IMG/VR virus record: IMGVR_UViG_2737471845_000004 | Source: a virus | Lineage: Duplodnaviria; Heunggongvirae; Uroviricota; Caudoviricetes | Length of the DNA: 7,123 bases | Strand: one strand, 5' to 3' | Part shown: positions 1 to 3,000 of the stretch, piece after piece | Numbering within the stretch: position 1 is the stretch's first letter | Layout of the letters: every line of letters starts with the position of its first letter | Position numbers: made by a program

Positions 1-3000
1 AATTATCCTGCCTTGCTGGTGGGCGTGCTGCCTTGCGGATACATTCCGCGCGACGTTTTGCCGCCTGTTCCCGTGCCTTGTCATCATTCGCCAGCATGAT
101 GACCTCAGCCCACCGCGCCGCCGCTCTCCGGTACAGACCACGCGCTTCCAGTGCTTCCGCTTTGCTGTCGTGAATCATGCGCCTGTTTTCTCCTTTGCTA
201 CCCGGCGCTGACGTTTGCGCTTCTCATTCAGCGCCACCAGCCGCGTTTCTGCGTCCTGTTGTTCCTGTGGTGTCACCTCGCCGCACGGCTGGCCTTTCAG
301 GTCGTAGCGTACCCCACCAGCCATTAAGGCGCGGTAATAGCGCGGACACTGTGCATAAGATGCCAGCGTCGCACGCAATGCCCCTGGACCGAATGCCAGC
401 CCCCTGACGGCGAGATCCTGCATCAGGTCGTCGAATATCCCCACCTTAAGCGGCTTCGGTGCTTCCCGGCTGAATAATTCAGGCCACAACTCAGTGAGGC
501 GGTTAATGCGCCTGCGGTTTTTGCGCTGGCGCTTGGTCATATGCCGCCACGGTGTCGCCCCTGTGGGCTTCTGCTGCGCTTTCTGGTTACCGGGCATCAC
601 TTTATGCGCCGACGTGGTTTTATCCTGCTCCTGTGCCGCCTGCGTCGTTTTCTGCGGCGTGCCATAAATGCCTTTCGGTTTTCTGTTAATGGTCAGCTTA
701 GTCATGCTTTGCCCCATCGTTACAACTGTCTACCAACTGTCTACCGATATAATTGATTGATTTATTTAATGTTATTAACTCATAACAAAAAAACAATCTG
801 CAAACTGTCTACTAACTGTCTACCGCATTAATACATTGATAATTAATGATTTTTACTAAATGGTAGACAGTGTAGACAGTTAAAAGAGAAATTTAAAAAA
901 TGAACCCTTAACTATCTGTTTTTTTATATACCCCCCGTGGTTTAGGAATATAGAAATAACTGCCCACCTCTCTACCACATTAAAAATACCTATATAATTC
1001 AAAACATTAATTAGTAGATGGTTGGTAGAGGGTTAAGTGTATCTGTCTACCAACCGTCTACTTTTAAGTTTCAACTTATAAATTTCGTATCATGTTCTGT
1101 CGTTAATGCCTGCCGCTGCTGGTAACCATCCATCAGCATCTTTATCTAACAGAACATTTGTGATCGTTCGCCCTTTATCTGGACCTTTAGTGCATTTAGC
1201 CCGCTTGTACTCCTTTCCGTACTCAGCCATTGCCCCTGGCATATCTGTACCAAAGCGTGTCAGTGATACCGGTTTTCCCAGACCATGCGCAGACATATAA
1301 GCCAAATAAGCATGATACAGATATCGCCTCGGGCTAAATGGCACTATTTCTGCATTACCTACTATCATCCCCTCACATTTAACCAACGACATCAGATAAC
1401 CGCAGAAGTCCACCAGCGAATCACCTTCACGCTTTATTAACAGTGCTTCTTCTGATTTTTGCTGCTCATAAAGTAGTCTTTTCGCTTCGTCCTGGTCGGC
1501 AAATCGTGTAAGCAAATGGCGAATCACTACCGCCAGTTCGCCTTCTATTTTTTCCACCAGCATGGGATCGCGTTCGTTCTCCGGTACGACCTCAGAGAAA
1601 TTAAATATCACCCTACGACGCGAGATCCCTCCACTGCGATCACTGAATGACATGGCGTTATTGTTTACTGCCAGCACTACCGCCGGAATACGTGTGGAGT
1701 AGGGGGCTTTATGTTTCGGGTCGATTGCCACCTTGTCACCGCCTGTAATGGCCTTAATCCCAGCACCATCACCTGCGTAGCGGGTCATGTCAGGCATGAT
1801 AATCAGAGAATATCCCACCACTAACGCTCGTTCCCTCGCGTCTTCCAGCGCCTTCATGCTCGCCGATACTGTATTGGCCTTACCCGCCAGCATGGTACAA
1901 ATCTCCGCCATCACACTTTTACCGCTTCCGCCCGGCCCCGTTACCTCAAGGAATAACTGCCAGTCGTACCGGTTCGCCAGTACCATGAATAATGCCGCCA
2001 GTACGCGATCCGCTTTACGAGCATTATCCGCCACCGAACGACGCAACCACTTCCAGAAATTCGGCGCATGTGTTGCCAGCGTTTCCCCCTCTTCTGGCGG
2101 GCTGAACGGTAATTCACTGGCATTTAACAACCAGTCATTTTTGTTGTGTTCCCGAAAATTTCCTGTCCTGATATCAAAAACACCGTTACTGAACCCAATA
2201 AGATTTCTGTCCGCTCCCCCCATAACAGGTAGACTCAATTTCATTGTCTCTACGGCAAATTTAATGGCGTTTTGCGAATAACTAATTTCGGCATCAATAA
2301 AAATCTTCGCCATAGACCGCTGGAGTTCCTTATCAGATACAGGCTCCCAAACAATTCCGTTGTAATGGTGAACTACATCAGAATCATCATTTATCGCCAG
2401 TGCTCCTCCATAATGTTCAAGTAACACTTCCCCTCTCTGGCTGGCTCCCATCTGATTTAATGCAGGCTTGGGTAGACCACTATTTTTTGTAGCTAATTTC
2501 ATCACTGAAACTTCCCCGTGCTCAGCCTGTTCGCGGATCCGTTGCAGGTAGTCGCGCCAGTTCTCCGGTTCCTGGTCGGTGATACCTTTGTATAATTTCG
2601 CCTCCTGTACGCCAGCCAGCGCCAGCTTTTCAGCGATAGTATTGATCTGGATTGGCTCTATCTCCCCCGCGATATAGACACGCGCAAAACGGCGTTTCTC
2701 GTCAATAATGCGGATATTCGCCAGGTCTGCCAGTTGCTTTGGCCCCAGGTAAACAGGAGGCACGTTATCGCCGTGTTTTCGTCCTTCACTTTCAATCCAG
2801 TGTTGAGCATGGGCGTAAGCATCCGTCCCGGCAAAAATGATTACCTCAGTGAATTTATCCTTCGGCTGATATTTTAGACTCGGTGCGTTTTTCACTTCTT
2901 ACCTCCCGCAACCAACATTGCCCGGATTTTTTTTATATTCGTGGCTGCACGTCTCGCCACTGCCTGTTGTTTGTTTTCCACCAGAATAAAATCACGATCA

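What the first reader, a model, noticed from the sequence alone, without database searches (positions are those of the whole stretch)
1..717. ProQ/FinO-domain RNA chaperone gene coupled to a PerC-like regulator, next to the origin
Mobile-element FinO-domain proteins typically act with small RNAs to control replication, transfer or host gene expression. Here a clear FinO/ProQ-like domain with a long basic N-terminal extension is translationally coupled (ATGA) to a small PerC-like protein. That pairing hints at an RNA-based layer regulating either the island or host genes.
Basis: partly seen in the sequence, partly recalled or inferred. Interest (0 to 1): 0.5.

Follow-up and report, generated by a model that had tools for sequence, protein, structure and literature searches.

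The report
FinO–PerC gene pair on phage satellite
Just after the replication origin of an E. coli phage-satellite island (a PICI) lie two overlapping genes, one for a FinO/ProQ-type RNA-binding protein and one for a PerC-type regulator; both are real, common and already annotated, but the RNA-binding protein's job on such islands has never been tested.

Summary
Window 175-705(-) encodes a 176-aa FinO/ProQ-domain protein (Pfam E=6e-24; FinO/RocC fold; RNA-pocket residues kept). It has a disordered basic N-terminal extension. Its stop overlaps (ATGA) the start of a PerC-family gene that the window edge cuts off. Directly upstream lies an AT-rich iteron origin, after a primase-helicase gene.

The element is an E. 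coli PICI-type phage satellite of the EcCICFT073 / O-island 51 kind. The FinO core occurs in 1175 of 5426 complete E. coli genomes, always chromosomal. The FinO+PerC pair occurs in at least 239. NCBI already names both genes, and the PICI literature lists both only as annotation.

FinO, PerC and SSB behave as interchangeable cassettes at the end of the replication transcription unit, which closes with strong terminators. FinO occurs without PerC, and PerC without FinO. Adjacency nevertheless recurs, once in reversed order.

No RNA partner is shown. Candidates are the unit's own terminators and a cis-antisense arrangement opposite the Icd-like leader. Relatives carry C4/IsrK and int-alpA RNAs.

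Verdict: a new, uncharacterised member of a known kind, of moderate interest.

The parts
175..705 (-). FinO/ProQ-domain protein gene, 176 aa. An upstream in-frame ATG at 717 would add MGQS. Layout: disordered basic N-extension (residues 1-57), basic helix (58-73), FinO domain (about 63-168), basic C-terminal helix (146-175).
   Evidence: Pfam PF04352 E=6.2e-24. PDB sequence profile: ProQ-NTD 5nb9 E=7e-18, FinO 1dvo E=3e-16, RocC, NMB1681. AF2 model: domain pLDDT about 90. Foldseek top hits FinO, RocC, NMB1681. dN/dS 0.13-0.31 over the domain.
1..178 (-). First 59 codons of a PerC-family gene, cut by the window end. Full length is 95 aa in relatives.
   Evidence: Pfam PF06069 E=2.2e-21. Translation. 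Full-length copies in L002, L011 and L020.
175..195 (-). Gene junction: ATGA stop/start overlap (175-178) and AAGGAG (190-195) 11 nt upstream of the PerC ATG.
   Evidence: Sequence read. The same 4-nt overlap occurs in L011; Salmonella L012 has an 11-nt overlap.
718..1089 (.). PICI-type replication origin. Iteron pairs (AACTGTCTACC, 11-bp spacing) lie at 724-745, 803-825, 861-881 (inverted) and 1041-1062, with degenerate inverted copies at 1013-1034, around an AT-rich core. The last iteron pair abuts the FinO start codon.
   Evidence: Region conserved in L001, L002, L011 and L020. Layout matches the EcCICFT073 origin (PMC6092414).
1090..2895 (-). Primase-helicase (Pri-Rep), 601 aa.
   Evidence: D5_N, DUF5906 and Pox_D5 domains. 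TIGR01613 P4-family primase domain. phrog_864 DNA primase E=4e-154.
2892..3182 (-). DUF4222 protein of the RgdR family, overlapping the primase start.
   Evidence: PF13973 E=4e-19. Same position and 99-aa size class as RgdR/C1493.
3964..5454 (-). Context: a 496-codon open frame ending in the Icd-like domain. It runs antisense through ylcI and is kept open in 14 of 15 related loci.
4517..4822 (+). Context: YlcI/YnfO-family gene on the opposite strand. Its transcript is complementary to the main-strand mRNA.
   Evidence: NF041551 E=6e-18. phrog_6522 E=3e-57.
5323..5433 (+). Context: candidate small antisense RNA unit. It has -35 TTCACA (5323-5328), -10 TAAAAT (5346-5351), an 11-bp terminator hairpin (5398-5423) and a U tract.
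   Evidence: Promoter hexamers are kept while the spacer diverges. The block is present in 308 genomes and never annotated.
5447..6283 (-). Context: GIY-YIG/T5orf172 protein in the antirepressor slot.
   Evidence: PF13455 and PF10544. RefSeq name.
6361..6558 (-). Context: AlpA-family regulator, the master activator in Gram-negative PICIs.
   Evidence: PF05930 E=2.4e-19. Role of AlpA from PMC6092414 and PMC11773190.

Best explanation
The window is the regulatory and replication half of an E. coli PICI-type phage satellite of the EcCICFT073 / O-island-51 kind. The order on the minus strand is alpA, an antirepressor-slot gene, an Icd-like gene, small ORFs, rgdR (DUF4222), the primase-helicase gene, the iteron origin, the FinO-domain gene and perC.

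The FinO-domain gene and perC are the last two cistrons of the early/replication transcription unit. In near-identical relatives this unit ends right after perC in two tandem intrinsic terminators.

Shown here:
- The protein has a bona fide FinO fold and keeps the residues that, in RocC, ProQ and FinO, clamp the 3' end and hairpin of an intrinsic terminator.
- It is under purifying selection.
- It forms a narrow enterobacterial clade, separate from FinO and ProQ, found on chromosomal islands.

Inferred:
- It binds hairpin-plus-U-tail RNA. With its basic disordered N-terminus and basic helix, which resemble the part FinO needs for strand-exchange activity, it stabilises such RNAs or speeds up sense-antisense pairing.
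- The most likely clients are RNAs of the island itself. These include the terminators of its own operon and the antisense transcripts opposite the Icd-like leader that gates the replication genes. In sister islands the clients could be C4/IsrK or int-alpA RNA.
- The protein would therefore tune, rather than enable, expression of the replication operon after induction. This parallels what FopA and PcnR do for plasmid replicons.
- PerC is co-translated by coupling, but is probably a separate small transcription modulator that shares the same expression slot. It is not an obligate partner.
For: Identity:
- Pfam hits and cut-offs.
- PDB sequence matches, with alignments showing G89, R111, Y123 and R133 equivalent to RocC G52, R75, Y87 and R97, and to ProQ R58, Y70 and R80. 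Residue roles come from PMC9674577.
- AF2 model and Foldseek matches.
- dN/dS 0.13-0.31 over the domain.

Island type:
- AlpA, the primase, DUF4222 and Icd-like/YlcI.
- Relatives are 11-17 kb islands with an integrase at the thrW, yicC and smrA/abgR sites.
- The layout is the same as EcCICFT073 and OI-51.

Replicon association:
- The FinO gene follows the D5_N primase, the DUF927 primase (+SSB) or the RepA-helicase modules.
- On a phage-plasmid it overlaps the end of a winged-HTH gene that I take to be a replication initiator, with SSB nearby; on a 12.9-kb Serratia plasmid it overlaps the end of an unnamed 429-aa gene.
- Characterised mobile-element relatives FopA and PcnR control replication through antisense RNA (PMC9977716, PMC7491321).

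End of the unit:
- Two hairpins directly after perC in L020, dG -44.4 kcal/mol, z -5.25.
- Equivalent terminators occur after the module in L011, L015, L004 and EcCICFT073.

RNA layer in the family:
- C4 and isrK lie just upstream of the Icd-like gene in FinO-bearing L003 and L012. int-alpA RNA lies after int in L001, L002 and L004.
- The window holds a cis-antisense layout and a candidate ~75-nt RNA with a conserved promoter and terminator.
Against: - No RNA partner is demonstrated, and none of the candidate RNAs is specific to FinO-bearing islands.
- EcCICFT073 has the same antisense layout and terminators but no FinO gene, and still transfers at high frequency (PMC6092414). The protein is therefore dispensable for the basic satellite cycle.
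- The gene is frameshifted in ABU 83972.
- The N-cap serine of the FinO domain is replaced by glycine (G106), and the flanking lysines that matter in RocC are absent (PMC9674577). RNA affinity or specificity may differ.
- No antisense RNA against the primase gene or in the origin was found.
- Whether the FinO gene has its own promoter in the origin or depends on read-through could not be settled.
Confidence: 0.55

Rival explanations
1. Host-directed accessory module. The FinO-domain protein acts as a second, ProQ-like global RNA-binding protein on host small RNAs and 3' UTRs. Together with PerC it reprograms host gene expression (virulence, motility, stress) for the benefit of the lysogen, independently of the satellite's own cycle.
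For: - PICI PerC homologues and RgdR act on host or LEE promoters: EcCIMP1_025 represses LEE1 (PMC11773190), and RgdR activates LEE1 and represses motility (PMC3378721).
- The FinO-PerC genes have 57-64% G+C against 42-57% across the part of the primase gene profiled (1101-2000), which is typical of a swapped-in cassette.
- The gene is dispensable for the PICI cycle, since EcCICFT073 lacks it.
- ProQ-type proteins can have hundreds of targets (PMC9977716).
Against: - The gene sits inside the replication unit and upstream of its terminators. PICI accessory genes usually sit at the far end of the island.
- The recurrent link is to replication proteins and SSB.
- No expression in the uninduced lysogen is shown.
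Confidence: 0.25
2. Helper- or competitor-phage interference. The protein binds regulatory RNAs of the helper phage (antisense or terminator-containing RNAs that control antirepressor, cII or late genes) and shifts the phage programme in favour of the satellite.
For: - In PICIs, genes just downstream of the origin often encode interference functions (PMC6092414).
- The islands carry AntA, Bro, Rha or GIY-YIG genes in the antirepressor slot and Icd-like genes of the P1/P4 immunity type.
- ProQ is known to bind phage-encoded RNAs (PMC9977716).
Against: There is no direct evidence. No PADLOC defence model matches. Helper phages of these islands are diverse, whereas the protein is conserved.
Confidence: 0.1
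3. FinO and PerC form an obligate two-protein regulatory unit. They would act on the same target, one at the RNA level and one at the transcription level, or bind each other.
For: - ATGA coupling in the window, L011 and L020, and an 11-nt overlap in Salmonella.
- Adjacency is kept with three different replication modules and in reversed order (PerC then FinO) in L015/L016.
- At least 239 genomes carry the pair.
Against: - The FinO core is in 1175 genomes, but the pair is detected in only 239.
- The commonest variant (P0047, listed in 4005 blocks of the contig index) is followed by an unrelated 138-aa protein.
- FinO stands alone in CP4-57-like remnants.
- PerC occurs without FinO in EcCICFT073 and the O157 islands.
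Confidence: 0.15

Closest known systems
FinO of F-like plasmids (PDB 1dvo)
   Same: Same domain and fold: best Foldseek hit, 30% identity over 110 columns, and E=3e-16 by sequence profile. Basic N-terminal region followed by a long helix, and a long C-terminal helix. Encoded on a mobile element. About 180 aa.
   Different: Scores only 64 bits against the FinO subfamily model, whose cut-off is 136. Not in a tra operon, and no FinP/traJ pair. Chromosomal island rather than a plasmid: 0 of 1657 copies are on plasmids. N-cap Ser is replaced by Gly.
FopA (pCol1B9) and PcnR (IncI2): replicon-associated FinO-domain proteins
   Same: Small FinO-domain proteins with a basic N-terminal extension, encoded beside a replication gene. 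They work through an antisense RNA that controls the initiator (PMC7491321, PMC9977716). This is the best functional analogy.
   Different: No Inc-type antisense RNA was found here. The replicon is a primase-helicase plus iterons, not RepZ/RepA. Sequence relationship to FopA and PcnR was not measured directly. All plasmid hits outside one mis-filed chromosome are below 40% identity.
ProQ (E. coli chromosome) and RocC (Legionella)
   Same: Same N-terminal FinO domain: ProQ-NTD 5nb9 E=7e-18, RocC 7rgt E=2e-12. The 3'-end pocket residues are conserved.
   Different: No ProQ linker or Tudor-like C-terminal domain; the protein ends at residue 176. Scores 58 bits against the ProQ equivalog model, whose cut-off is 127.
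PerC of EPEC, PchE of O-island 51, EcCIMP1_025
   Same: Same Pfam family. Same kind of element and same slot, after the primase (and SSB where present), as in OI-51, EcCICFT073 and EcCIMP1.
   Different: Function differs among homologues: PerC and PchABC activate LEE1, PchD/E are inactive, and EcCIMP1_025 represses. The copy here is untested and truncated by the window.
EcCICFT073 / O-island 51 (CP-933C) / EcCIMP1: Gram-negative PICIs
   Same: Same gene order: int, alpA, (ant), ylcI, Icd-like, small ORFs, DUF4222/RgdR, primase, iteron origin, (SSB), PerC, terminators, packaging/accessory genes.
   Different: EcCICFT073 has no FinO gene. The window's island has a GIY-YIG gene in the ant slot and an IS1414 insertion on the int side of alpA.
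P1/P7 immI (c4-icd-ant) and P4 CI RNA immunity
   Same: Icd-like gene preceded by an RNA-based switch. Sister islands L003 and L012 carry genuine C4 and isrK RNAs at that place.
   Different: The window has no C4 or isrK. Instead it has an antisense ylcI transcript and a long open leader frame. No FinO-type protein is known to take part in P1 or P4 immunity (own knowledge).

Membership tests
ProQ/FinO domain family (PF04352) | Sequence match to the domain model above the curated threshold | tested here: met
   84.5 bits against a cut-off of 27, E=6.2e-24, nearly full profile coverage.
ProQ/FinO domain family (PF04352) | FinO fold | tested here: met
   AF2 domain pLDDT about 88-96. Foldseek: FinO 1dvo, RocC 7rgt/7rgu, NMB1681 and Lpp1663, all at probability 1.00; target TM up to 0.83.
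ProQ/FinO domain family (PF04352) | 3'-nucleotide pocket residues (RocC Gly52, Tyr87, Arg97; ProQ Tyr70, Arg80) | tested here: met
   G89 and R133 are invariant and Y123 is at least 90% conserved in 19 homologues.
ProQ/FinO domain family (PF04352) | Helical N-cap motif (RocC Ser70, Lys71, Lys73, Arg75) | tested here: inconclusive
   Arg is kept (R111, 17 of 19 by my reading of the alignment). The cap residue is Gly106 instead of Ser/Thr, and the two Lys positions are Pro and Ala.
ProQ/FinO domain family (PF04352) | Binds hairpin plus 3'-tail RNA | not testable with these tools
   Needs EMSA, ITC or CLIP.
FinO proper (fertility inhibition) | Meets the FinO subfamily model; partner FinP/traJ; located in a tra region | tested here: not met
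   NF010317 scores 64 bits against a cut-off of 136. No tra genes nearby. All copies are chromosomal.
ProQ proper | ProQ equivalog score; C-terminal Tudor-like domain | tested here: not met
   NF003434 scores 58 bits against a cut-off of 127. The protein ends 8 residues after the domain-flanking helix.
PerC family (PF06069) | Sequence match above threshold | tested here: met
   76.3 bits against a cut-off of 22.6 for the 59 residues in the window. The full-length relative scores 109.6 bits.
PerC family (PF06069) | Activates the LEE1/ler promoter | not testable with these tools
   The literature shows that PICI homologues vary: inactive (PchD/E) or repressing (EcCIMP1_025).
Gram-negative PICI (phage-inducible chromosomal island) | alpA regulator, pri-rep gene, and an origin of two iteron sets flanking an AT-rich core immediately 3' of pri-rep, all in one direction | tested here: met
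   Criteria from PMC6092414.
Gram-negative PICI (phage-inducible chromosomal island) | Integrase at a specific att site; about 10-17 kb; no tail or lysis genes | tested here: inconclusive
   Met in close relatives L001, L020, L021 and L026. The window lacks that end of the element; an IS1414 copy lies there.
Gram-negative PICI (phage-inducible chromosomal island) | Induction, replication and packaging by a helper phage | not testable with these tools
   Shown for EcCICFT073 and EcCIMP1 only (PMC6092414, PMC11773190).

The most novel reading that the evidence does not exclude
The satellite gates its replication operon with an RNA switch of the P1 c4-icd-ant type, and the island's FinO-domain protein is the dedicated chaperone of that switch.

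The proposed steps are as follows. The main-strand mRNA must be translated through a long leader frame that is kept open (window 5454-3964) to escape Rho-dependent termination. Opposite-strand transcripts carry strong terminators: the ylcI mRNA and a ~75-nt RNA at 5358-5433, or C4/IsrK in sister islands. These pair with the leader and block its translation. The FinO-domain protein, made at the end of the same operon, binds the antisense RNA terminators and accelerates or stabilises the pairing. This would give feedback on primase, SSB, FinO and PerC synthesis.
Probability: 0.1. Interest if true: 0.7.

Novelty: new member of a known kind. Interest (0 to 1): 0.35.

Why it matters
FinO-domain proteins are a major class of bacterial RNA chaperone, alongside Hfq. 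The characterised mobile-element members (FinO, FopA, PcnR) are all plasmid-borne and each controls transfer or replication through one antisense RNA. This clade sits on phage satellites in about a fifth of complete E. coli genomes, with up to nine copies per genome. It appears in the PICI literature I searched only as an annotation label.

If it controls satellite replication or helper-phage RNAs, it would add a post-transcriptional layer to satellite-helper conflict. It would also provide a compact, narrow-specificity FinO protein for studying target selection. If it acts on host RNAs together with PerC and RgdR, it would extend the known influence of PICIs on virulence regulation.

As it stands the finding is an annotation-level confirmation with a testable hypothesis, not a surprise.

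Tried and rejected
- Known RNA families in the window. An Rfam scan at E<=1 found nothing. There is no C4, IsrK, FinP or Inc-like RNA in the window itself.
- Structured or antisense RNA in the ori/leader region (718-1089). No terminator was found on either strand apart from weak AT hairpins. The region aligns as iterons plus AT-rich DNA. A sigma-70 promoter for the FinO gene could not be assigned with any confidence.
- Antisense terminator-like hairpins inside the FinO gene (plus strand 497-513 and 656-672). They are 5-bp stems that lie on conserved peptide motifs. One compensatory synonymous pair was seen (L004), but another relative has a one-sided mismatch, and the U tract starts 4 nt after the stem. 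Judged insufficient.
- Is the 138-aa gene after FinO in the commonest variant a divergent PerC? No: no Pfam hit and no PerC-like sequence by eye.
- Defence-system membership. No PADLOC match for FinO or PerC.
- Plasmid or phage origin. All plasmid hits are below 40% identity, apart from one record that is really a chromosome, and there are only 7 weak phage hits.
- Is the frame 5060-5454(-) an ordinary protein gene? No family hits and no third-codon-position excess in substitutions (22/31/22). The frame is kept open but not conserved as a protein.
- The genome-contig scan returned only two loci because its peptide patterns were too strict. Contexts were obtained by exact-protein look-ups instead.
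- Pseudogene or remnant. Rejected by the dN/dS values.
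Full report
**1. What is in the sequence**

All relevant genes lie on the minus strand. ORF 175-717 matches Pfam ProQ/FinO (PF04352) at E=6.2e-24, 84.5 bits against a cut-off of 27, over almost the whole profile.

The upstream ATG at 717 has no ribosome-binding site. All 18 aligned homologues begin MTxLTINRK, and RefSeq annotates 531-nt genes. I therefore take 705 as the start, giving 176 aa.

The stop TGA (175-177) overlaps the ATG (176-178) of the next ORF. Its 59 codons before the window edge match Pfam PerC (PF06069) at E=2.2e-21. AAGGAG lies 11 nt upstream of that ATG. A 96%-identical full-length copy (95 aa, L002) scores E=9e-32.

**2. The origin**

Between the FinO start and the stop of a 601-aa primase-helicase gene lie 372 nt of 24-34% G+C. 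The primase-helicase (1090-2895) carries D5_N, DUF5906 and Pox_D5 domains and the TIGR01613 P4-family primase domain. The two downstream genes have 57-64% G+C.

Nine of the window's ten matches to CTGTCTAC (3.1 +/- 1.7 expected by chance) lie in this stretch. They form 11-bp-spaced pairs in both orientations around an AT-rich core, and the last pair ends 12 nt before the FinO ATG. This is the organisation shown experimentally to be the origin of the E. coli PICI EcCICFT073 (PMC6092414).

**3. The protein**

- A profile of 19 homologues hits the solved FinO-domain structures: ProQ-NTD 5nb9 at 7e-18, FinO 1dvo at 3e-16, RocC at 2e-12 and NMB1681 at 1e-9.
- An AlphaFold model has pLDDT of about 88-96 over residues 60-170 and below 50 over residues 1-49.
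- Foldseek returns FinO, RocC, NMB1681 and Lpp1663 as top hits, and no other fold at E below 1.
- Using those alignments and the RocC-RocR structure paper (PMC9674577), the 3'-nucleotide pocket is intact. G89, Y123 and R133 correspond to RocC G52, Y87 and R97, and Y123/R133 to ProQ Y70/R80. G89 and R133 are invariant and Y123 is at least 90% conserved.
- The N-cap arginine is kept (R111). The cap residue is Gly106 rather than Ser/Thr, and the two flanking lysines are absent.
- The N-terminal 57 residues are basic (net +8), Q/T-rich and disordered. A basic helix follows (58-73, net +7), and the C-terminal helix is basic too.
- dN/dS against eight relatives is 0.13-0.31 for the domain. For the extension it is 0.07-0.25 in seven comparisons and 0.62 against L012. 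The extension is therefore functional too.
- The protein is neither FinO proper nor ProQ proper. It scores 64 bits against a 136-bit cut-off and 58 bits against a 127-bit cut-off on the NCBIfam models, and it has no ProQ C-terminal domain.

**4. What the element is**

The window also encodes the following:
- AlpA (6361-6558).
- A GIY-YIG/T5orf172 protein in the antirepressor slot (5447-6283).
- YlcI/YnfO on the opposite strand (4517-4822).
- An Icd-like C-terminus (about 3964-4340).
- Three small phage-type ORFs.
- A DUF4222 protein overlapping the primase start (2892-3182).

Close relatives in complete genomes are 11-17 kb islands with a tyrosine integrase at thrW/proA, yicC or smrA/abgR. Downstream they carry TerS-like, capsid-related or defence (TIR/SEFIR) genes, and no tail or lysis genes.

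The model PICI EcCICFT073 has the same order. So does O-island 51 of O157:H7, whose 99-aa RgdR regulator corresponds in position and size to the DUF4222 gene, and whose PerC homologue is PchE (PMC3378721). EcCIMP1, another characterised PICI at the proA site, carries a PerC homologue that represses LEE1 (PMC11773190).

The window's copy has an IS256-like IS1414 end at about 6883-7123, inserted in the gene on the int side of alpA.

**5. How common it is, and whether the pair is a unit**

- The FinO core (224-555) is found in 1175 of 5426 complete E. coli genomes. There are 1657 copies, up to nine per genome, and none is on a plasmid.
- The 717-nt FinO+PerC stretch is covered at 80% or more in 239 genomes.
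- In the 50%-identity library only 8 clusters score below 1e-30, against 2202 below 1e-3. This is a narrow clade of the large family.
- Plasmid FinO-domain genes are below 40% identical, and phage hits are few.

Contexts fall into the following classes:
- D5_N primase, origin, FinO, PerC: window, L001, L002, L011 (Citrobacter), L020.
- DUF927 primase, SSB, FinO, PerC with an 11-nt overlap: Salmonella, L012-14.
- D5_N primase, 85-aa ORF, SSB, PerC, FinO: the reversed order, L015/16.
- RepA-family helicase, 257-aa ORF, FinO, PerC: L026.
- DUF927 primase, SSB, FinO, an unrelated 138-aa protein: the commonest variant, L004-9.
- FinO alone in CP4-57-like remnants: L010, L017-19.

EcCICFT073 has primase, an 85-aa ORF, SSB and PerC, and no FinO.

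FinO, PerC and SSB thus behave as interchangeable cassettes in one slot. Adjacency of FinO and PerC is recurrent, which is weak evidence of shared use, but it is not obligatory.

**6. Transcription-unit architecture**

In L020 (99.9% identical over 1-717) and L011, perC is followed at once by two tandem intrinsic terminators (dG -44.4 kcal/mol, z -5.25). Equivalent GCCGGA-tetraloop-TCCGGC-U(n) terminators close the module in L015, L004 and EcCICFT073. The FinO and PerC genes are therefore the last cistrons of the early/replication unit, upstream of the packaging/accessory part. These terminators lie outside the window.

**7. Search for an RNA partner**

Rfam finds nothing in the window. The origin/leader region shows no convincing structured RNA. 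Two weak antisense hairpins inside the gene were set aside.

The island family nevertheless does carry regulatory RNAs:
- int-alpA RNA (RF02996), a three-way-junction RNA ending in a U tract, follows int in L001, L002 and L004.
- C4 antisense RNA (RF01695) and isrK (RF01394) lie directly upstream of the Icd-like gene in FinO-bearing L003 and L012.

The window has a different arrangement at the place where C4 and isrK sit. The ylcI gene and a further plus-strand unit are complementary to the main-strand mRNA.

The plus-strand unit has the best promoter match in the window (-35 TTCACA, 17 nt, -10 TAAAAT at 5323-5351). It has an 11-bp terminator at 5398-5423, and the fold gives -23.4 kcal/mol with z -2.3. 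In relatives the -10 is TATAAT or TACAAT while the spacer has diverged. The 347-nt block occurs in 308 genomes and is never annotated.

On the main strand one frame stays open from the stop of the antirepressor-slot gene to the Icd-like stop in 14 of 15 loci. It spans 284-496 aa as called ORFs and up to 582 open codons stop to stop, despite different internal content. The one exception is L003, which has C4/isrK instead. Substitutions in this frame show no codon-position bias.

From my own knowledge of P1 immI (Biere, Citron and Schuster 1992), C4 RNA blocks icd translation and thereby causes Rho-dependent termination before ant. This suggests, but does not show, that translation of this leader is what is being controlled. 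None of these RNAs is restricted to FinO-bearing islands.

**8. Mechanism and rivals**

The best-supported reading is that the protein binds hairpin-plus-U-tail RNAs. It would act as a modulatory chaperone or stabiliser for the island's own transcripts, by analogy with the replicon-associated FopA and PcnR. On a phage-plasmid the FinO-domain gene overlaps the end of a winged-HTH gene, which I take to be a replication initiator, and SSB lies nearby. On a small Serratia plasmid it overlaps the end of an unnamed 429-aa gene.

The protein is not essential for the PICI cycle. EcCICFT073 lacks it, and the gene is frameshifted in ABU 83972.

The rivals are a host-directed ProQ-like role together with PerC and RgdR, interference with helper-phage RNAs, and an obligate FinO-PerC unit. 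The last is disfavoured by the distribution data.

**9. Novelty**

Both genes are named by NCBI's pipeline in thousands of genomes. PICI PerC homologues have been discussed since 2005-2018. A 2026 survey of Enterobacter PICIs lists 'ProQ/FinO-like RNA chaperone' and 'PerC' as accessory genes (PMC13612085), and Vibrio satellite-plasmids are reported with a ProQ/FinO-like gene (PMC13230959). No paper in the searchable library tests a satellite-borne FinO-domain protein.

This is a new, uncharacterised member of a known kind. It is moderately interesting because it is abundant and makes a clear experiment possible.

Noticed in passing
window 3964-5454 (-); L020 16975-17829; L023 8767-10053; L026 5968-7458; L004 5526-6650: One main-strand frame stays open from the stop of the antirepressor-slot gene to the Icd-like stop in 14 of 15 related loci. 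It spans 284-496 aa as called ORFs and up to 582 open codons. It runs antisense through ylcI and through stretches that RefSeq leaves unannotated. The middle is not conserved as protein, and substitutions show no codon-position bias. It may be kept open so that translation protects the transcript from Rho, as with P1 icd.
   Followed up: partly
window 5323-5433 (+): Candidate ~75-nt small RNA antisense to the start of that long frame. It has the best sigma-70 match in the window plus an 11-bp terminator. Promoter hexamers are kept (the -10 becomes TATAAT in relatives) while the spacer diverges. The surrounding 347-nt block is in 308 E. coli genomes with no annotated feature.
   Followed up: partly
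L003 6236-6424; L012 65-758: Sister islands that carry the same FinO-domain gene have isrK and C4 antisense RNA genes (Rfam gathering-level hits) directly upstream of the Icd-like gene. L012 has two tandem copies. L003 is the one locus without the long open frame.
   Followed up: partly
L001 19757-19824; L002 3442-3510; L004 2963-3030: The int-alpA RNA motif (RF02996, function unknown) lies just downstream of the integrase gene in these islands. It is a closed three-way junction followed by a U tract, the kind of RNA that FinO domains bind. That end of the island is missing from the window.
   Followed up: no
window about 6205-6268 (-): A ~60-nt box in codons 6-25 of the antirepressor-slot gene (ACGCCCGTACAGGGGCGGGGCTTCGTTCGGCCTGAAAACCAGA...) is conserved at the nucleotide level. 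It is shared by otherwise unrelated genes (GIY-YIG, AntA, Rha and the fused ORF of EcCICFT073), even where the upstream sequence differs. It includes a GC hairpin (6252-6267). It could be a recombination joint or a cis-regulatory RNA/DNA site.
   Followed up: partly
window 6883-7123: End of an IS256-like IS1414 transposase gene, inserted into the hypothetical gene that lies between alpA and int in relatives. The window's island may be cut off from its integrase.
   Followed up: yes
window 2892-3182 (-): The DUF4222 gene overlapping the primase start corresponds in position and size to RgdR (ECs1581/C1493), a regulator of LEE and motility described in O157:H7. Here the motif reads R-P-G-D instead of R-G-D.
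   Followed up: partly
L020 12813-12887; L023 about 14220-14310; L015 5605-5640: The replication/SSB/PerC/FinO module ends in very strong, partly bidirectional intrinsic terminators of conserved type (GCCGGA-GNRA-TCCGGC-U run). These separate it from the packaging/accessory half of the island.
   Followed up: yes
L004-L009 11560-18900: In the commonest FinO variant the island continues with three 600-920-aa proteins without Pfam hits, one with an SLT lytic transglycosylase domain in L008. They may be P22-like ejection or 'DNA transfer' proteins, as noted for EcCIMP1.
   Followed up: no
L024 2649-4183; L025 2691-4618: On a Salmonella phage-plasmid the FinO-domain gene overlaps the end of a winged-HTH gene (possibly a replication initiator), with an SSB gene nearby. 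On a 12.9-kb Serratia plasmid it overlaps the end of an unnamed 429-aa gene. Together these hint at a general replication-gene-then-FinO arrangement on mobile elements.
   Followed up: no
window 1-650 versus 1101-2000: The FinO-PerC genes have 57-64% G+C, against 42-57% across the part of the primase gene profiled (1101-2000). This is consistent with the pair being an exchanged cassette.
   Followed up: no
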